A DNA stretch of 62,978 bases, filler included, from Welwitschia mirabilis (Eukaryota): NCBI GenBank assembly GCA_051453625.1. It is 7 parts of one record of this genome, joined end to end, with 100 filler letters (N's around TTAATTAATTAA, not from the genome) between each part and the next. Parts side by side here need not be neighbours in the genome. Positions count along the whole stretch, not along the records: positions 43,462 to 47,226 come from JBOZIK010000001.1; positions 47,327 to 53,931 come from JBOZIK010000001.1; 5 more parts are not named here. One strand, written 5' to 3'. The position numbers and the translations under genes are program-made. The notes under the pieces are model-generated. The model was not told where the DNA came from and did not search any database. It was given only the letters and a program-made list of their open reading frames with translations. Below, piece after piece: positions 29,871 to 50,649 of this stretch (position 1 is its first letter; each line of letters opens with the position of its first letter).

Positions 29871-30097
29871 GTAACACCCCAACTTTAATTATCTTAATTA
29901 ACCATAATATTTTTTCTAAAGTATTAATAACTAACATGCACAATGGAACCTAGGATCAAATCCTATTTAGACTCTATTAATACATTATAAGATTTAANNN
30001 NNNNNNNNNNNNNNNNNNNNNNNNNNNNNNNNNNNNNNNNNTTAATTAATTAANNNNNNNNNNNNNNNNNNNNNNNNNNNNNNNNNNNNNNNNNNNN

Positions 30098-31897: not shown

Positions 31898-34800
31898 GTA
31901 GGTTTTTACACTCTAAGCATCTGTTCCAATTTAGAAAAACCATCAGAAAATTTATTTACAAGGAAGGAAAAATCTTTTACCTAAGACATTAAATTGGTGT
32001 TGTTAGATTTTATCATATTATATTTTATTTTCATTTCCTCCTTTTTTTTGGGGAGAGTCTTTACTACTTTGTTCAGATCATTTATCCTAGCTAGCTTTTC
32101 ACATTTATCATATAGCTCCTAGCATGTATCTTCTAACTCATCCTCTTTTCTATTGATCATGTCAAAATCATCAGACTCTAACATGCTAGGAATATCTTTA
32201 AGGAATGGCACAATCACTGTGAAAGACAATCTTTTTCTTTGTCTGATTCTTGATCTGAATAGCTATCATCATCATTATCATCATTATTCCATGCGATAAT
32301 AAGAGAGGGAATCTTTGTTTTCTTATTATCTCTCCTTGTGTTGGGATACTTATTTGCCATATGACTAAATTATTTACATGAGTAGTATTGGATTTCTTTA
32401 CCTTTTTCTTGTTACTTTCTATGCTTTAAATGATTTCTTTTTGAATTTCTACTTGATTCTTCTTCCTTTTCCTTCCTATGTAGAAACTTTCTAGACCTTC
32501 TGTTAGAAGAGATACTTCATTATCNNNNNNNNNNNNNNNNNNNNNNNNNNNNNNNNNNNNNNNNNNNNNNNNNNNNNNNNNNNNNNNNNNNNNNNNNNNN
32601 NNNNNNNNNNNNNNNNNNNNNNNNACATGATAGGAATATCTTTGAGGGATGGAACAATCACTGTGAAAGATAACCTTTTTCTTTATCTGATTCTTGATCT
32701 GAATAGCTATCATCATCATTATCATCATTATCCCATGTGATAATAAGAGAGGGATTCTTTATTTTCTTATTATCTCTCCTTATGTTGGGACACTTATTTG
32801 CCATATGACCAAATCCTTTGCATGAGTAGTATTGGATTTCTTTACATTTTTCTTGCTCCTTTCTATGCTTTAGATGATTTATTTTTGAATTTCTACTTGA
32901 TTCTTCTTCTTTTTCCTTCCTATGTAAAAACTTTCTGAACCTTCTATTAGAAGAGACACTTCATTATTGTCCAAGGTCTTATCTTATCTTTCATATCTAT
33001 AGTCTTCTTGCACACATTTTAAAGTAATACTTTTCTTCTTATCTTTAACAAATTTAAGTTCATAGATTTGTAAATTAACTTGTAGTTCTTCCAATACCAT
33101 TGTATTTATGTTTTTGCTCTCCTCGATAGTTGTGACCTTTGGTACAAATCTCTTCGATAGAGGTCTCAAGACTTTTCTTACCTCCTTTCTTTCATCCAAG
33201 CATTCTCCAAAGCTTTCCATAGAGTTTATGATATTCTTAAGTCTAGCAGAGAATTCCTACAACATCTCCTCTTCATCCATATAGATGTCTTTAAATTTTG
33301 AAATAACAGTTGAGGTTCCTTCGTGTGCTACTTCTAGAATTTTCCAAGCTTTTTTACCATGATTATAGTTTCCTTTAAACTTAAACTCATCTACATAGAT
33401 TACATAAAATATGGCATTAAGAGCATGGCATCTATGATAGCTTTTGACTTGTTAATGGAGGTCCATTGATTTTGGATTTTGGGAACCAAGATAGTATTAC
33501 CATTGACATCANNNNNNNNNNNNNNNNNNNNNNNNNNNNNNNNNNNNNNNNNNNNNNNNNNNNNNNNNNNNNNNNNNNNNNNNNNNNNNNNNNNNNNNNN
33601 NNNNNNNNNNNCAAAGAATTCCTATAAGGTCTTCTCTTCGTCCATATAGATGTCTTTAAATTTTAAAATAAGCATTTAAAGTTTTGCTTGCTTTACAGTT
33701 GAGGTTCCTTCGTGTGCTACTTCTAGAATTTTCCAAGCTTTTTTACCATGATTATAGTTTACTTTAAACTTAAACTCATCTGCACAGATTGCATAAAATA
33801 TGGCATTAAGAGCATGGCATCTATGATATCTTTTAACTTGTCAATGGAGGTCCATTGATTTTTGGTTTTGGAAACCAAGATAGTATTACCATTGACATTA
33901 GTTTGAGTTAACATAGGCATAGTATAACCTTTATAAATGACTTCCTTTATATCAACATCTAAAGATTTANNNNNNNNNNNNNNNNNNNNNNNNNNNNNNN
34001 NNNNNNNNNNNNNNNNNNNNNNNNNNNNNNNNNNNNNNNNNNNNNNNNNNNNNNNNNNNNNNNNNNNNNGAGTTAACATAGGCATAGTATAACCTTTATA
34101 AATGACTTCCTCTCTAAAGATTTAAGAAATATTCTCATTTTAGCTTTTCAATAAGCATATTTTAACCTATCAAACATGAGTGGATGACTGATGGAAAAAG
34201 CATTAGATGGATTACTTATTGTATGGTTCTAAAGTTAAGATTGATTAAAATCTAAAGAAGACTTAACTTTGTTCGAATACCAATTGATAAGATCAAGAAC
34301 CCTAGAAGGGGAGTGAATAGATTCTTAAAATTACAATATGATATTCTAAACAAATTTGAAATAAATCAAAAACTTGCATAAAATAATTTACTAAAACAAA
34401 ATGTACATGAAAATAAAAGTTAATAGAAAAAAATAAACTAACTAAAATCATAAAAGTACCAAATAGATGCACGCAGGATTTATAGTAATTTAGAAAACCC
34501 CCTACCCTACTCTCACGATTAGCTTATCCCCAAGGTTGATTTGGATTTTTATTACTCCACTAGGTATTCCAGGTTCATCTTTAATCTTTACAAATAGACT
34601 TTTCCAGGCTTAGTCTTAATATTTGAATGGATTTTCAAGGCTTAATCTTGACCTTTGAATAAACTTTTCAAGGCTTAGTCTCAATCTTTTATAATACAAA
34701 GTAGTAATATAATGATGCAAATATACACGGATATCACTCATTCTTGATACAGTGGATTTGATAGAGCTNNNNNNNNNNNNNNNNNNNNNNNNNNNNNNNN

Positions 34801-43360: not shown

Positions 43361-43461
43361 CNNNNNNNNNNNNNNNNNNNNNNNNNNNNNNNNNNNNNNN
43401 NNNNNTTAATTAATTAANNNNNNNNNNNNNNNNNNNNNNNNNNNNNNNNNNNNNNNNNNNN

Positions 43462-46068
43462 TGAGAAAAAGGAAAAAAGTGGTAATAAACTTTCAACAAA
43501 AACCAAATGAAGATTATACCTTTACTTATGAACGTTTCTTCATAGCAATCCGTTCTAATCCAGTTAATGCTTTTCCAAAAAACAAAACAAGTAGACTGTT
43601 TTTATAGTGGATTAGCTCCCCATACAAAACAACTTGTAGATTTCTCTTATGATGGAAGCCTCATGAACCTTACTCTAGATAATGCCTAGACAAAATTNNN
43701 NNNNNNNGAAGAGCTTGTGGAGGTTAGCCAAACTTGGTTAACTCCTAAATAAAATCCAATTGTAGGCCAACTCATCGAATATTTAACAAAGATTAAACAA
43801 CAAAAAAAGGTGCAATCAAATCCTAAAAATTCCATGAAAGATTTTACAACAACCTTGGAGAAGTATGCAGAAATGATCTTAAATGCCAAATCCATAATTG
43901 AGAAAAATGTTATGCAAACTTGTGATTTATGTAAAGATAATTATCATGTCACTAAAAACTATCCTCTTTTGCCAACATCCAAAGAAAGAATATGTGAATA
44001 AGTTTATGCTTTTAACCAACAACCTCAAAACTTCAGAAATCAAAATCAACAACAACANNNNNNNNNNNNNNNNNNNNNNNNNNNNNNNNNNNNNNNNNNN
44101 NNNNNNNNNNNNNNNNNNNNNNNNNNNNNNNNNNNNNNNNNNNNNNNNNNNNNNNNNGAAGTTTATACTTTCAACCAACAACCTCAAAACTTCAGAAATC
44201 AAAATCAACAACAACATAGATTGAATACTCATTTCCAAAATAATTCTCAACCTTTTAGAAACTAATTTGAAAATGCAAACAATCCACTAAGTTCATCCAA
44301 CTACCAACATCTAAATGATCCAATCACAAATCTTGTCAATGAAATAAGAAGATCATTAGAAAAAATAAATGCCAAATTTGAGAAACAAAATGCCAACATG
44401 GAAAACATAGTAAACATCCTTTAATAAATATTTCTAGCAAACTAAAGACCTTAAGGAACATTAGCTACATAACCTTTACCAAATCCAAATGAAGTAAGTA
44501 AAGATTATAAGTTGTGACAAGAAGCGAACAAGAAACAATCCCTTATCCATGTGAACCATCCACCTCAAAAAATAACCTTAGAAATGATAAAGAAGAAGAG
44601 GAAGAGGACATTGAGATATTAGACAATTACNNNNNNNNNNCCTTCTCTTGGCAACAAGAGAAAAAAAATCCTTCACAATAAATCACCCTTTGGCTTAATA
44701 GGGATAACAACAATTCAACTTTCAATGATCATTTAAAAGCCTTGATGAAAAATGTGAGCATAAACTTATCCTTTTGAAAAGTTTTACAAGTAAGCCTAGG
44801 GTACTCAAAATTATGGAAAGACCTAATAAGAAGAAAATAAAAATAAGTTATACCTAGTAAGGTCTTTCTTGCTCAATTCCTCACAAATATAATATTACAA
44901 AAATCATCCAAATTTAAANNNNNNNNNNNNNNNNNNNNNNNNNNNNNNNNNNNNNNNNNNNNNNNNNNNNNNNNNNNNNNNNNNNNNNNNNNNNNNNNNN
45001 NNNNNNNNNNNNNNNNNNTGAGAAACAAAATGCCAACATGGAAAACATAGTAAAAATCCTTTAATAAATATTTCTAGCAAATCAAAGACCTTAAGGAACA
45101 TTAGCTACATAACCTTTACCAAATCCAAATGAACTAAGTAAAGATTATAAGTTGTAACAAGAAGTGGACAAGAAACAAGCCCTTATCTATGTGAACCATC
45201 CAACTCCCAAAATAACCTTAGAAATGATGAAGAAAAAGAGGAAGAGGACATTGAGATATTAGACAATTACANNNNNNNNNNCTTCATAATAAATCACTCT
45301 TTGGCTTAATAGGGACAACAACAATTCAACTTTCAATGATCATTTAAAAGCCTTGATGAAAAATGTGAGCACAAACTTATCCTTTTGAAAAGTTTTACAA
45401 TAAGCCTAGGGTACTCAAAATTATAGAAAGACCTAATAAGAAGAAAATAAAAATAAGTTATACCTAGTAAGGTCTTTCTTGCTTAATTCCTCACAAATAT
45501 AATATTACAAAAATCATTCAAATTTAAAGATCTAAGAGCAGCGATGGTGAATGTTATTATAGAGGGAAACAAAAAGATTAGAAAAGCTTTAATAGACATT
45601 GAAGCGAGTATTAACATTATGCCACTTCACATTTGTAAGAGACTTGATTTAGAGGATAGAATAGAGCCTACTACAGTTGTTTTAGAATTAGCGAATACAT
45701 CAGTTAAGAAACTATTAGGTGTTATTAAAGATTTGGAAATTCAAATTGAAGAGGCTTGCTACCCCATAGATTTGATCATCACAGAAGTTGAGCATAACAA
45801 AGGATACCTTTTACTTCTAGGTCACTTTAGAAATAGAAAATTTTCAATTAGAGTTTTTAATATGGCTGAGAAAGATTTGGGTGATGATGAAATAAATATT
45901 AAAATAAATATCAAACCAAATTTATTCCTATAACATCACCCACTAGAAGAAAGAGAGATAAAATTAAATGAGCATGTGCTTTGTGATGACCAAATTAAGA
46001 ATAAAAAAGAAATGAAACCTTTATAGTGTAAGGAAGTCCAACTTTTAAAAAAAGATTATGTGGGAGAT
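43462..46068 (+). mobile_element. Athila-like Ty3/gypsy gag and aspartic protease fragment
   Basis: FYSGLAP..KQLVD.S.DGSLM; CDLCKDNYHVT; KALIDIEASINIMP..PTTVVLELAN.SVK..LGVIKDL..YPID. 44379-44918 is duplicated at 45019-45525. Confidence 0.85.
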
Positions 46069-47620
46069 NNNNNNNNNNNNNNNNNNNNNNNNNNNNNNNN
46101 NNNNNNNNNNNNNNNNNNNNNNNNNNNNNNNNNNNNNNNNNNNNNNNNNNNNNNNNNNNNNNNNNNNNNNNNNNNNNNNNNNNNNNNNNNNNNNNNNNNN
46201 NNNNNNNNNNNNNNNNNNNNNNNNNNNNNNNNNNNNNNNNNNNNNNNNNNNNNNNNNNNNNNNNNNNNNNNNNNNNNNNNNNNNNNNNNNNNNNNNNNNN
46301 NNNNNNNNNNNNNNNNNNNNNNNNNNNNNNNNNNNNNNNNNNNNNNNNNNNNNNNNNNNNNNNNNNNNNNNNNNNNNNNNNNNNNNNNNNNNNNNNNNNN
46401 NNNNNNNNNNNNNNNNNNNNNNNNNNNNNNNNNNNNNNNNNNNNNNNNNNNNNNNNNNNNNNNNNNNNNNNNNNNNNNNNNNNNNNNNNNNNNNNNNNNN
46501 NNNNNNNNNNNNNNNNNNNNNNNNNNNNNNNNNNNNNNNNNNNNNNNNNNNNNNNNNNNNNNNNNNNNNNNNNNNNNNNNNNNNNNNNNNNNNNNNNNNN
46601 NNNNNNNNNNNNNNNNNNNNNNNNNNNNNNNNNNNNNNNNNNNNNNNNNNNNNNNNNNNNNNNNNNNNNNNNNNNNNNNNNNNNNNNNNNNNNNNNNNNN
46701 NNNNNNNNNNNNNNNNNNNNNNNNNNNNNNNNNNNNNNNNNNNNNNNNNNNNNNNNNNNNNNNNNNNNNNNNNNNNNNNNNNNNNNNNNNNNNNNNNNNN
46801 NNNNNNNNNNNNNNNNNNNNNNNNNNNNNNNNNNNNNNNNNNAACTTTTTCCTTTGGAGGATTATTATGATGTTACTTGATTATTTTTTAAACTTTACTT
46901 ATGTATTTATTTTCATAATTAGTCTCTTGACTTGGGCATTTTAGTGGTAAGATTGAATTCATCCAATCTTAGAACATTCACATGTCCATGAACTTTAGTT
47001 TAAAAAAAGATGCTTTATTTTTTAAGTTTTTTTCAATGAAGAAAAGATCTTAGATTATTTAAGAGTGTTCTTTTTTGCCTTAATCTTACAACTTCCAGCT
47101 TTATCTTTTGGAGTGTTTGGTCATGTGGAATGTTGTTTTGTTTTATTAAAAAAAAAGAAAAAAAAAGGAAAGGAAAAAAGGAGAGAGAGAGAGAAATAAA
47201 AACCATGATGTTTTTTATTTGTGTTGNNNNNNNNNNNNNNNNNNNNNNNNNNNNNNNNNNNNNNNNNNNNTTAATTAATTAANNNNNNNNNNNNNNNNNN
47301 NNNNNNNNNNNNNNNNNNNNNNNNNNTGATTTTTGATTGGATCTGGATTTGAGCAACATAATTATGCCTCAGATCGGTATTTTCTTAATATTTTCATTTG
47401 TTTTTTATTTTGCAATAGAAGCATTACTGCAAATAACTGAATTATATAATGGAGGCATCTTCAATTTGAAATCACTATTTGAAGAATACAAAAGCATATT
47501 AGTGGCTCTGTATCTCCTACTTGTTTTTGTCTCTATAGAGTCCCTTTACTGTCATAGAATTAAGTTTCCTTATCTATTCTAGAGCAAGGAATTCTTTACT
47601 GCTGTAGAAGGAGCTTGAGT

Positions 47621-47719
47621 AGGGCAGATGATGAGTATGATGATCTCTTTAAGATTACTCTTATTAGCAATTCTGGCATCGGCAAGTCAAATTTGCTATC
47701 ATAGTTCACCCAAAATGAG
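47621..47719 (+). pseudogene. RABA: Isolated fragment of a RabA/Rab11 small GTPase gene (N-terminus and P-loop)
   Basis: Translates [32 protein letters not shown], versus plant RabA1 [32 protein letters not shown]; no ATG, internal stop, similarity ends abruptly. Confidence 0.9.
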
Positions 47720-49489
47720 TGCTGCTCTCAGATGTGCATCCATAGGGAGTGGTGGTGCTTGCAGTAGCTATAATAGTGATAGAGCAACAAAGATGAAGCA
47801 ACAGATAATTATCATTCTGAAACAAAACTATGTAACAGTAGCTCGCTATTCTCGTGCATAGAGAAATTGGCATGGAGGGCACAAGAGTAATAAGGGTGAA
47901 GCCTAAAAGAAAGCACTTTATTAGAGATAGTCAGTGCTGGGCATTCAAAAGTTTAATAAAGGAAAAAAAACATTTTTCTGATAAAAACACTAGATAATAT
48001 GCACATAAAAATAGAAACTAAGAAAGAAATATAGCTANNNNNNNNNNNNNNNNNNNNNNNNNNNNNNNNNNNNNNNNNNNNNNNNNNNNNNNNNNNNNNN
48101 NNNNNNNNNNNNNNNNNNNNNNNNNNNNNNNNNNNNNNNNNNNNNNNNNNNNNNNNNNNNNNNNNNNNNNNNNNNNNNNNNNNNNNNNNNNNNNNNNNNN
48201 NNNNNNNNNNNNNNNNNNNNNNNNNNNNNNNNNNNNNNNNNNNNNNNNNNNNNNNNNNNNNNNNNNNNNNNNNNNNNNNNNNNNNNNNNNNNNNNNNNNN
48301 NNNNNNNNNNNNNNNNNNNNNNNNNNNNNNNNNNNNNNNNNNNNNNNNNNNNNNNNNNNNNNNNNNNNNNNNNNNNNNNNNNNNNNNNNNNNNNNNNNNN
48401 NNNNNNNNNNNNNNNNNNNNNNNNNNNNNNNNNNNNNNNNNNNNNNNNNNNNNNNNNNNNNNNNNNNNNNNNNNNNNNNNNNNNNNNNNNNNNNNNNNNN
48501 NNNNNNNNNNNNNNNNNNNNNNNNNNNNNNNNNNNNNNNNNNNNNNNNNNNNNNNNNNNNNNNNNNNNNNNNNNNNNNNNNNNNNNNNNNNNNNNNNNNN
48601 NNNNNNNNNNNNNNNNNNNNNNNNNNNNNNNNNNNNNNNNNNNNNNNNNNNNNNNNNNNNNNNNNNNNNNNNNNNNNNNNNNNNNNNNNNNNNNNNNNNN
48701 NNNNNNNNNNNNNNNNNNNNNNNNNNNNNNNNNNNNNNNNNNNNNNNNNNNNNNNNNNNNNNNNNNNNNNNNNNNNNNNNNNNNNNNNNNNNNNNNNNNN
48801 NNNNNNNNNNNNNNNNNNNNNNNNNNNNNNNNNNNNNNNNNNNNNNNNNNNNNNNNNNNNNNNNNNNNNNNNNNNNNNNNNNNNNNNNNNNNNNNNNNNN
48901 NNNNNNNNNNNNNNNNNNNNNNNNNNNNNNNNNNNNNNNNNNNNNNNNNNNNNNNNNNNNNNNNNNNNNNNNNNNNNNNTTCTGTCGCATTGACAAGCAT
49001 TTGACATTCTATCTAAAGTTAAAGATTTAAAGCTAATGTTCTACATACTTTAACTAATAACATTTTCTTACAATTGATTTTAGAAAAGCATTAGATTTTA
49101 TTAGTGGATGCTCAATTTGTTGTGTGATTAATTGTATCATTATTTACATCTCATTTGGAAGATTATCCTATTCTATACAAGTCTTTCATCCTCATCTAAG
49201 CTTATTTCTATCTACTTTACATTGGTTTCTTTCCTGATAATAGAAAAACCATATCCCNNNNNNNNNNNNNNNNNNNNNNNNNNNNNNNNNNNNNNNNNNN
49301 NNNNNNNNNNNNNNNNNNNNNNNNNNNNNNNNNNNNNNNNNNNNNNNNNNNNNNNNNNNNNNNNNNNNNNNNNNNNNTTTGTTTTTAATTATCTTATTGG
49401 CCATGAGGGTTGTCTTTAGGAAACTTGGGTCATTTATCATGTAAATAGTATAGATGTAATTTATCATGTAATTGGTGCATAAATCTTTT

Positions 49490-49751
49490 TTTTTTAATCG
49501 CCTCAAAAGGATTTTAAGGCGTTTATCTAAGAAAACACCTCAGAAGTACATTTCAATAATTTTAAGGCGTTTATTTCACAAATATACCTTAAAAGACATT
49601 TTTAAGGCATTTGTATTCAAACGCCTTAGGCTTTTAAGGTGACCCCTTTTAAAGAGTTTTGCAAACAAATGCCTTAAAAGCATTTAAGGCATTTTTTATG
49701 GCTTTTTAAGACATTTTAGAAACACCTTAAAAGCCTATATTTCTTGTAGTG
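49490..49751. mobile_element. CACTA (En/Spm) transposon terminus with subterminal repeats
   Basis: Ends ATTTCTTGTAGTG (rev-comp CACTACAAGAAAT), preceded by about 10 direct/inverted TTTTAAGGCGTTT / AAACGCCTTAAAA-like motifs. Confidence 0.92.
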
Positions 49752-50649
49752 TAATGATAGAAGAGTTCATTTTTGAGTAAATCTTTGGTCTGATCATTCA
49801 TTGTTTAATGCATTTTACTCTAGCATCATCATAATCACTACCTTATCGAATGGAATTTTTGTACATAAAGTCATGCATTTTCCATATTAAGTGATGTTAT
49901 GATTTCTTTCATGAGATTCTGCTAGGTTAAAATATCAGATCAATGAGCTATGTTTGTTTATGTTATCTTATGCCCATTCTTCTTATTTTCTTTTGTGATC
50001 TGGTTAGTTATTTTAAAATTGTTACCATATTTTTTAGCATGTTTTCCTTATTCAAGTTTTCAATAAAAGATAATTTCTTAGATGAGTGTTTTCCCAATAA
50101 ATTTGTGCTATTTATTTTTCATATTCTTTTTGGTGTTGTAAGCACTACTCATGTTCTTTCTATGACAAAACATTTTTATTATTCACTCTTTTTTTTTATT
50201 TGTCATAATATTTTATAAATCTATATTTTTCAAATTCNNNNNNNNNNACTTGCCTTCTCACTCCTATTTACTTTCTTTGATTTATCTTTCAATACGGGAT
50301 GTGTTGCTTTTTCTTTGGGGGATTAGAGACCCATTTTCATGGCTCATTTTCAAAAAAAGATTAACATAATTCAGATATTTTATAACATAAAATTTTCAAA
50401 TTTTCATACACATTATGCATTACTTGTTATATATCTATGTGATGTGTTTTATGAGCCTTTTTTATAATTCCAGATTTATCCTTTGAAAAACAAATTAGAT
50501 CGCAATTATGGTTTTTCGTCTGGTTTNNNNNNNNNNNNNNNNNNNNNNNNNNNNNNNNNNNNNNNNNNNNNNNNNNNNNNNNNNNNNNNNNNNNNNNNNN
50601 NNNNNNNNNNNNNNNNNNNNNNNNNNGTTTTTGTCAGCAATTGATAAAG

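What the first reader, a model, noticed from the sequence alone, without database searches (positions are those of the whole stretch)
47327..49751. Candidate Pack-CACTA carrying a captured RabA/Rab11 GTPase fragment
Seen: a 99-bp piece encoding the RabA N-terminus and P-loop (47621-47719) sits in non-TE-looking DNA. The same scaffold segment has a clear CACTA terminus at 49751 and no visible transposase. Known: non-autonomous CACTA elements capture and shuffle host gene fragments. Inference: the Rab piece is cargo of this element. Two sized gaps lie in between and the left terminus is not visible.
Basis: partly seen in the sequence, partly recalled or inferred. Interest (0 to 1): 0.72.

Follow-up and report, generated by a model that had tools for sequence, protein, structure and literature searches.

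The report
Dead RabA fragment near CACTA end
A short, dead piece of a RabA/Rab11 GTPase gene and a genuine end of a CACTA transposon both exist in this gap-ridden plant scaffold, but nothing shows that one carries the other, and either way it is an ordinary kind of plant genome debris.

Summary
Both observations hold. At 47612-47725 (+) lies a 36-38-codon RabA/Rab11 N-terminus. It matches Rab11A at E 1.5e-10 and has an in-frame TAG and a broken P-loop. At 49751 lies a true CACTA end: CACTACAAGAAAT on the minus strand, about 250 bp of TTAAGGCG-type subterminal repeats, and over 100 public-run contigs per run that stop matching at 49750-49752.

No other Rab homology exists anywhere in the window. 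The homology appears to stop inside exon 1, so this is not a decayed gene in place. Diverged copies in public DNA runs share that breakpoint and the dead state. The piece was therefore copied after it died, as part of a low-copy repeat of at least 440 bp.

The cargo claim itself cannot be decided:
- No left terminus is visible.
- 1062 of the 2425 bases are N.
- The three contigs are joined only by scaffolding.
- A stretch at single-contig depth (47817-47914) separates the Rab repeat from the CACTA end.
- The abundant CACTA family similarity covers only the last 170-250 bp.

My odds: separate neighbours 0.5, CACTA cargo 0.3, scaffold misjoin 0.15. Gene-fragment capture by CACTA elements is already well described. 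Interest is low.

The parts
47227..47326 (.). Artificial linker (44 N, TTAATTAATTAA, 44 N) that joins separate scaffolds. It marks the left edge of the scaffold holding the finding. The next linker is at 53932-54031.
   Evidence: 6 such linkers in the window
47327..48037 (+). 711-bp contig that carries the Rab piece. It is a mosaic of repeated DNA. Summed contig depth in X1/X2: 47327-47522 is 96-109 / 35-53; 47523-47816 is 41-45 / 8-12; 47817-47914 is 4.4 / 3.4 (one contig's worth); 47915-48012 is 30.6 / 2.2.
   Evidence: tables 2, 3 and 8. No Pfam domain. No Rfam family.
47612..47725 (+). Dead fragment of RabA/Rab11 exon 1, about residues 2-38. It covers the N-terminus, the P-loop (degenerate: SNSGIGKS) and the start of switch I. 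There is an in-frame TAG at 47702-47704 and no ATG in frame.
48038..48979 (.). Sized gap of 942 N. It is large enough to hide a CACTA left terminus or other sequence.
48980..49257 (.). 278-bp AT-rich contig with no ORF, domain or CACTA subterminal motif. It is present as several variants in public runs, for example 9 contigs with G at 49219 in X2.
49258..49377 (.). Sized gap of 120 N.
49378..49499 (.). Sequence just inside the CACTA subterminal region. It has low copy depth (53-95 in X1, 67-79 in X2). It is either the interior of the element or unrelated DNA abutting a one-ended remnant.
49500..49751 (-). Subterminal region and terminus of a CACTA (En/Spm-type) element, read inward on the minus strand. 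The 13-nt end CACTACAAGAAAT lies at 49739-49751. There are 8 copies of TTAAGG[CT][GA], in both orientations.
   Evidence: depth 970-2870 at 49581-49678; 116 (X1) and 115 (X2) contigs leave the sequence at 49750-49752.
49752..49754 (.). TAA directly outside the terminus. It is a candidate half of a 3-bp target-site duplication. The partner is not visible.
49777..50070 (.). Very high-copy repeat flanking the CACTA end. Summed depth is 4.1e4-9.6e4 in X1 and 1.4e4-4.8e4 in X2. A few RNA reads lie on it.
   Evidence: table 2
51798..52343 (-). RT-RNase H of a Ty3/gypsy-type LTR retrotransposon in the same scaffold.
   Evidence: RT_RNaseH E 2.3e-27; RT_RNaseH_2 E 2.7e-24; RT_RNaseH_2 E 1.9e-8

Best explanation
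Two real but separate pieces of repeat debris sit on one small, unplaced, gap-ridden scaffold.

(1) A piece of about 110 bp from the 5' end of a RabA/Rab11 coding exon was cut out of its gene inside exon 1 and joined to unrelated DNA. This is gene-fragment transduplication or filler capture. The composite was then copied a few times as part of a low-copy dispersed repeat of at least 440 bp. It has since decayed: it has a stop codon and a broken P-loop, and most amino-acid changes are of the G-to-A type. It encodes nothing.

(2) Two kilobases to the right lies the true right terminus of a CACTA family with hundreds of copies. It may be a one-ended remnant, or the end of an element whose left end is hidden in a gap. 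It abuts a very high-copy repeat and a gypsy retrotransposon.

Shown: both features, the multi-copy state, the shared breakpoint, and the element boundary at 49751. Inferred: that the two belong to different insertions.
For: Rab homology is confined to 47612-47725.
- There is one significant tblastn hit per query in the whole window.
- Flanks score no better than shuffles: downstream 26 against a shuffle mean of 30.0, with 268 of 300 shuffles at least as high; upstream 29 against 30.2, with 185 of 300.

The break appears to lie inside exon 1. Six truncated RabA gene models among the 9 hits I fetched leave the canonical sequence only after ...GVEFATRTL(Q)V. That is about 19 codons beyond where the window's homology stops (inference, because the organisms are unnamed).

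The dead composite was copied.
- A contig with 10 differences spans that break (47688-47800).
- Another, with 8 differences over 47613-47713, keeps Ser in place of the P-loop Gly and adds a further Gly-to-Ser change.
- Diverged contigs tile 47389-47829.

The two features look separate.
- Depth falls to one contig's worth (4.4 / 3.4) at 47817-47914, between the Rab repeat and the CACTA end.
- Depth of hundreds to thousands is confined to 49581-49751.
- 116 and 115 contigs diverge into unlike sequence at 49750-49752.

No left terminus or inverted subterminal motif occurs in the visible contigs.

One-ended CACTA deletion derivatives are documented (PMC6379663, passages).
Against: - No other transposon signature was found around the Rab piece that could name an alternative carrier.
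- All three contigs left of 49580 show similar modest multiplicity. That is what a low-copy non-autonomous CACTA subfamily with family-wide termini would look like.
- Pack-CACTA relatives need not share their whole interior (PMC6379663), so the single-copy stretch is weak evidence.
- Summed contig depth is not a copy number, by the tool's own warning. Polyploidy or heterozygosity could account for two to four of the variants.
- 44% of the interval is unread.
Confidence: 0.5

Rival explanations
1. Pack-CACTA, or cargo of a larger CACTA. The Rab fragment lies inside the CACTA element that ends at 49751. The left terminus then lies beyond the scaffold's left edge (left of 47327), so the element is longer than 2.4 kb. 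The fragment was acquired by the element and multiplied by transposition in trans.
For: - The terminus is genuine and belongs to a family with many copies.
- The Rab piece is a short exon fragment with a breakpoint shared among diverged copies. That is the usual look of transduplicated cargo.
- All contigs between the two features are low-copy repeats of similar multiplicity, and none carries a domain of another transposon class.
- No transposase was found in the readable 1363 bases.
- CACTA elements carrying host gene fragments are documented in Arabidopsis, maize, rice and soybean (PMC6379663 and PMC8903248, passages; PMC1947982, abstract start in the search listing).
Against: - No left terminus was found. 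The two plus-strand CACTA pentamers in the visible contigs (47473, 47988) match the 40-nt end at only 15 and 16 of 40 positions. Among all 70 such sites in the window the best match is 23.
- No subterminal motif occurs anywhere in 47327-49257.
- A stretch at single-contig depth lies at 47817-47914, and depth is uneven along the interval.
- Linkage rests on scaffolding across 942-N and 120-N gaps in repeated DNA.
Confidence: 0.3
2. Scaffolding artefact. The 711-bp Rab contig and the CACTA-end contig are not neighbours in the real genome. Paired reads falling in repeats joined them.
For: - The scaffold is a 6.6-kb unplaced piece with six gaps. It is concatenated with others through artificial linkers.
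- Every contig in it is repeated DNA.
- No listed public-run contig spans any gap (run table and table 8, where 16 of 19,649 pieces are listed).
Against: The gaps are sized (942 and 120 N, not the default 100), which implies paired-read distance estimates. Nothing in the data contradicts the order.
Confidence: 0.15
3. Decayed RabA gene in place. The rest of the gene is hidden in the 942-N gap.
For: The gap could hold a second exon. The piece includes the protein's N-terminus in the right orientation.
Against: - Homology stops about 19 codons before the inferred end of exon 1, and the next 318 bases score below shuffles.
- Diverged copies share the same breakpoint.
- There is no ATG, there is an in-frame stop, and the P-loop is destroyed.
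- No other Ras-domain hit occurs in 43462-57246 or elsewhere in the window.
Confidence: 0.03

Closest known systems
En/Spm (CACTA) superfamily termini, e.g. maize En1, Ipomoea Tpn1, carrot Tdc1
   Same: The 13-nt end CACTACAAGAAAT matches the En1 TIR CACTACAAGAAAA at 12 of 13 positions, using the TIR as listed in Table 2 of PMC3193017 (passage read). About 250 bp of short subterminal repeats lie in both orientations. There is a sharp boundary shared by many copies.
   Different: Only one end is seen. The 3-bp target duplication cannot be checked. The subterminal motif (TTAAGGCG-like) is this family's own. No transposase is in view.
Pack-CACTA / Pack-TYPE elements (Arabidopsis Pack-CACTA1/2; packFinder classes in rice and maize)
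   Same: A short host exon fragment without transposase lies close to a CACTA terminus and is present in a few diverged copies. Captured pieces mixed with DNA of unknown origin are typical of these elements (PMC6379663, passages).
   Different: The defining frame of two TIRs plus a TSD around the cargo is not shown here (PMC8903248 and PMC6379663, passages). 44% of the candidate element is N.
Soybean Tgm-Express1 (CACTA carrying host gene fragments)
   Same: A plant CACTA element associated with fragments of host genes (PMC1947982, abstract start seen in the listing).
   Different: Tgm-Express1 is a complete, genetically defined element whose fragments are spliced into transcripts. Here neither completeness nor transcription of this locus is shown.
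Plant RabA / animal Rab11 GTPases
   Same: Residues 2-38 align at 69-72% identity, including the DDEYDxLFK and [14 protein letters not shown] signatures.
   Different: Only about 17% of the protein is present. It has a stop codon, the P-loop Gly is changed to Ser and the Asp to Asn, and there are no G2-G5 motifs.

Membership tests
CACTA (En/Spm) transposon | Terminal sequence beginning CACTA(C/G), conserved for about 13 nt | tested here: met
   49739-49751 on the minus strand reads CACTACAAGAAAT. This is 12 of 13 identical to the En1 TIR listed in PMC3193017 Table 2.
CACTA (En/Spm) transposon | Second terminus in inverted orientation | tested here: inconclusive
   None is present in the visible contigs (best 15-16 of 40 positions, at chance level). 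However, 1062 of the 2425 bases are N, and the scaffold ends at 47327.
CACTA (En/Spm) transposon | 3-bp target-site duplication | not testable with these tools
   TAA follows 49751. The other flank is unknown.
CACTA (En/Spm) transposon | Clustered subterminal repeats in both orientations | tested here: met
   8 of the window's 16 motif matches fall in 49514-49730. See also families D2/D7 and inverted pairs I7, I8, I15, I18-I20.
CACTA (En/Spm) transposon | Multi-copy, with homology ending exactly at the terminus | tested here: met
   116 contigs in X1 and 115 in X2 run into unlike sequence at 49750-49752, with consensus agreement of only 0.42-0.44 (table 7).
Pack-CACTA (Pack-TYPE) | Host coding fragment located between the two TIRs | tested here: inconclusive
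   The host fragment is real. Its position between TIRs is not shown, because no left TIR was found.
Pack-CACTA (Pack-TYPE) | No transposase between the TIRs | tested here: inconclusive
   No transposase domain was found in six-frame Pfam scans of 43462-57246, but only 1363 of the 2425 bases are readable.
Pack-CACTA (Pack-TYPE) | Clusters with similar elements (not a singleton) | tested here: inconclusive
   Diverged copies of the Rab composite exist (records 2, 4, 5, 13, 14). Whether they carry CACTA ends is unknown.
Functional RabA/Rab11 gene | Complete Ras-type GTPase domain (G1-G5) in an open frame | tested here: not met
   Only residues of about 2-38 are present. There is a TAG at 47702-47704, and the P-loop reads SNSGIGKS. 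No further homology was found.

The most novel reading that the evidence does not exclude
The interval is the right-hand 2.4 kb of a low-copy Pack-CACTA subfamily. Its cargo is the 5' end of a RabA gene (possibly 5'UTR plus the first 38 codons). At least one member of the subfamily is transcribed in sense orientation, so it could yield antisense-independent small RNAs or chimeric transcripts that touch RabA expression.
Probability: 0.08. Interest if true: 0.35.

Novelty: new member of a known kind. Interest (0 to 1): 0.15.

Why it matters
It matters little beyond annotation. It is a worked example showing that, in a fragmentary draft assembly, a gene fragment lying near a transposon end is not evidence of capture. 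If the cargo reading were confirmed, it would add one more Pack-CACTA to a class already described in several plants. A 110-bp dead RabA piece has no evident functional consequence.

Tried and rejected
- Whole-genome search: no genome is held for this window. The parental RabA locus and sibling copies could therefore not be retrieved.
- Earlier notes of this scan: three look-ups returned nothing.
- Self-comparison: BLASTN of six contigs of the scaffold against the window found no other copy. The only hit was the internal subterminal repeat.
- The search for homologous proteins with the 44-residue read-through: 4 candidates, none scored. This is uninformative for so short a query.
- Metagenome scans with a 36-nt stretch of the Rab piece and a 23-nt stretch of the CACTA end: 0 matches each.
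- Rfam on 43462-53931: 0 families.
- The look-up of sequencing runs: no RNA holder listed.
- RNA raw reads laid: 12 reads (X13) and 9 reads (X16) over the whole 2.9 kb. 20 of these 21 were only 90-95% alike, and most fitted only in part. They probably come from relatives, not from this locus, and they say little about expression. About a quarter of each run was read.
- An idea of mine, that Rab homology continues downstream in another frame (…IGSGGA… against …TIGVEFA…) or without an intron, was rejected by the shuffle test.
- Two weak minus-strand tblastn hits inside the Rab contig (47533-47486 and 47427-47368, E 23-38) are at chance level.
- An 18-nt imperfect inverted repeat at 47348-47365 / 47805-47822 (78% complementary) roughly brackets the Rab repeat. 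It is one of 52 such pairs in 3.4 kb of AT-rich DNA and has no matching flanks, so I did not rely on it.
- The CACTA pentamer at 47473 (CACTATTTGAAGAA) was rejected as a left terminus: 15 of 40 positions match, no subterminal motifs, low depth, and flanks AAT against TAA.
Full report
**Setting.**
The window is AT-rich plant-type DNA with 50 runs of N. Six 100-base blocks of the form 44 N, TTAATTAATTAA, 44 N look like artificial joins between separate scaffolds. That reading is my own; no call confirms it. The finding lies in the scaffold 47327-53931. That scaffold consists of short contigs:
- 47327-48037, which carries the Rab piece;
- 48980-49257;
- 49378-50237, which carries the CACTA end;
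- four more contigs, which carry RT-RNase H of a gypsy-type retrotransposon on the minus strand at 51798-52343.

**The Rab piece is real and dead.**
- Frame 1 from 47600 reads [41 protein letters not shown].
- Against all PDB chains the 36-residue read-through (stop as X) hits Rab-11A at E 1.5e-10. Rab11, Rab25, Ypt31/32 and Arabidopsis RABA1a rank above Rab1 and Rab35.
- Pfam Ras reaches only E 0.018, below its cut-off. That is expected for 23 aligned residues.
- A search of 1.84 billion representative proteins gave 728 hits at E<=0.001.
- From these I took three proteins with a complete RabA-type domain and ran tblastn against the whole window. Each gave exactly one significant hit, at 47612/47618 to 47719/47725 (E 5e-11, 5e-11 and 1.4e-7). 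Every other alignment had E>=0.22.
- Against the invariant RabA residues the piece has Gly-to-Ser and Asp-to-Asn in the P-loop, two Val-to-Ile/Thr changes, Arg-to-stop, Arg-to-Gln and Phe-to-Cys.
- Read from the codons in the window, at least four of these eight replacements need a single G-to-A change on the plus strand. This is what long-silenced, methylated repeats tend to show (inference).

**It is not a gene decaying in place.**
- The 318 readable bases downstream and the 285 upstream align to RabA no better than shuffled versions. Downstream scores 26 against a shuffle mean of 30.0, with 268 of 300 shuffles at least as high. Upstream scores 29 against 30.2, with 185 of 300.
- Six of the nine representative proteins I fetched are truncated gene models. 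They follow the canonical RabA sequence up to ...GVEFATRTL(Q)V and then run into unrelated residues. I read that as the end of exon 1.
- If so, the window's homology stops about 19 codons short of the exon end. The piece was broken inside an exon. This step is inferred, since those proteins carry no organism names.

**The dead piece was copied.**
I laid the contigs of two public DNA runs (X1, X2; two organism labels) on 47327-50237 at 90% or more likeness.
- Several distinct contigs cover the same places.
  - Nine contigs in X1 carry G at 47417.
  - Three contigs in X1 and four in X2 carry A at 47620.
  - Listed pieces with 0, 8 and 10 differences overlap at 47688-47713.
- One diverged piece (10 differences) runs from 47688 to 47800, across the point where Rab homology ends.
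- Another (47613-47713, 8 differences) keeps the Ser that replaces the P-loop Gly and adds a second Gly-to-Ser change.
- Diverged pieces tile 47389-47829.

So a composite of at least 440 bp, made of the Rab fragment plus non-Rab DNA on both sides, exists in at least three variants that share the breakpoint and the dead state. The fragment was multiplied after it had left its gene. Two caveats apply. The tool warns that summed depth is not a copy number. Polyploidy or heterozygosity could explain two to four of the variants.

**The CACTA end is real.**
- The minus strand at 49739-49751 reads CACTACAAGAAAT. This is 12 of 13 identical to the En1 terminal repeat as tabulated in PMC3193017 (Table 2, passage read).
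- It is the only exact CACTACAAG in the window. A 9-mer alone would not be significant.
- The 250 bases inside it hold 8 of the window's 16 matches to TTAAGG[CT][GA], in both orientations.
- In each DNA run more than a hundred contigs follow the sequence up to 49750, 49751 or 49752 and then run on into mutually unlike, AT-rich sequence. The counts are 38+50+28 in X1 and 34+57+24 in X2, with consensus agreement 0.42-0.44 (table 7). That is the signature of many insertions of one family at different sites.
- Summed depth is 970-2870 at 49581-49678. It is only 53-95 (X1) and 67-79 (X2) at 49385-49580.
- Outside the end, 49777-50070 is a far more abundant repeat, with depth up to 9.6e4.

**Is the Rab piece cargo of that element? 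This cannot be decided.**

For the cargo reading:
- The two features share a scaffold.
- Nothing between them bears the mark of another transposon class.
- All three contigs are low-copy repeats.
- Pack-CACTA elements with short exon fragments, often mixed with DNA of unknown origin and only partly shared among relatives, are well documented (PMC6379663 and PMC8903248, passages).

Against the cargo reading:
- No left terminus exists in the readable sequence. There is no CACTACAAG, even with one mismatch, between 47327 and 49742.
- The two plus-strand CACTA pentamers at 47473 and 47988 match the 40-nt end at 15 and 16 positions. The best of all 70 such sites in the window is 23.
- The inverted 120-nt end aligns to the Rab and middle contigs no better than to shuffles.
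- No subterminal motif occurs in 47327-49257.
- If the cargo reading is right, the left end must therefore lie off the scaffold.
- Depth drops to a single contig's worth (4.4 / 3.4) at 47817-47914, between the Rab repeat and the CACTA end. It is uneven elsewhere.
- Linkage of the contigs rests on scaffolding in repeated DNA.
- One-ended CACTA remnants left by aberrant excision are known (PMC6379663, passages). The abundant family similarity here covers only the last 170-250 bases.

I put separate neighbours at 0.5, CACTA cargo at 0.3, scaffold misjoin at 0.15 and an in-place gene relic at 0.03.

**Expression.**
I laid two RNA runs with the same species label as X2, as raw reads, with about a quarter of each run read. 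Only 12 and 9 reads fell on the 2.9 kb. 20 of the 21 were 90-95% alike and most fitted only in part. A few lie on 47425-47725 with the first mate on the minus strand. They most likely come from related copies or from a RabA mRNA. They do not show transcription of this locus.

**Comparison and verdict.**
The terminus is a member of the CACTA superfamily by its end sequence, its subterminal repeats and its copy behaviour. The second end and the target duplication remain untested. Membership in Pack-CACTA fails for want of its defining frame: two TIRs and a TSD around the cargo. The Rab piece is not a gene. Even if the cargo reading were right, gene-fragment capture by CACTA elements is established in Arabidopsis, rice, maize and soybean (PMC6379663, PMC8903248; PMC1947982 by the abstract start in the listing). 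The finding is a correct observation of ordinary repeat debris with an untestable link. Interest is low.

Noticed in passing
window 22169-22268, 29998-30097, 43362-43461, 47227-47326, 53932-54031, 57247-57346: There are six identical 100-base blocks of 44 N, TTAATTAATTAA, 44 N. They look like artificial six-frame-stop linkers that concatenate unplaced scaffolds. If so, neighbouring segments of the window are not neighbours in the genome.
   Followed up: partly
window 49777-50070: The flank of the CACTA end is an extremely abundant repeat. Summed contig depth reaches 9.6e4 in X1 and 4.8e4 in X2, against 3-9 for single contigs. Public-run contigs disagree consistently with the window at 49933-49953 and 50030. 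A few RNA reads lie on it. Its class was not determined.
   Followed up: no
window 51798-52343 (-) and 54178-55582 (-): Gypsy-type RT-RNase H lies in the finding's scaffold. RT-RNase H plus an integrase core lie in the next scaffold. Copia-type RVT_2, gag and Pol_BBD pieces lie at 17450-19528 and 32987-33256. No DNA-transposase domain was found in the 24 long ORFs scanned or in the six frames of 43462-57246.
   Followed up: partly
window 47417, 47419, 47445, 47620, 49050, 49219: At these places every (or nearly every) contig of one or both DNA runs carries a different letter from the window. For example, 47620 is T in the window and A in all 3 (X1) and 4 (X2) contigs, which turns Ser into Arg just before ADDEY. 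These are either private variants of the assembled plant or consensus errors in the draft.
   Followed up: no
P0003: One representative RabA-like protein model also has EYDDLFK instead of the usual EYDYLFK. The Tyr-to-Asp difference in the window piece may therefore be inherited from its parent paralogue rather than being decay.
   Followed up: no
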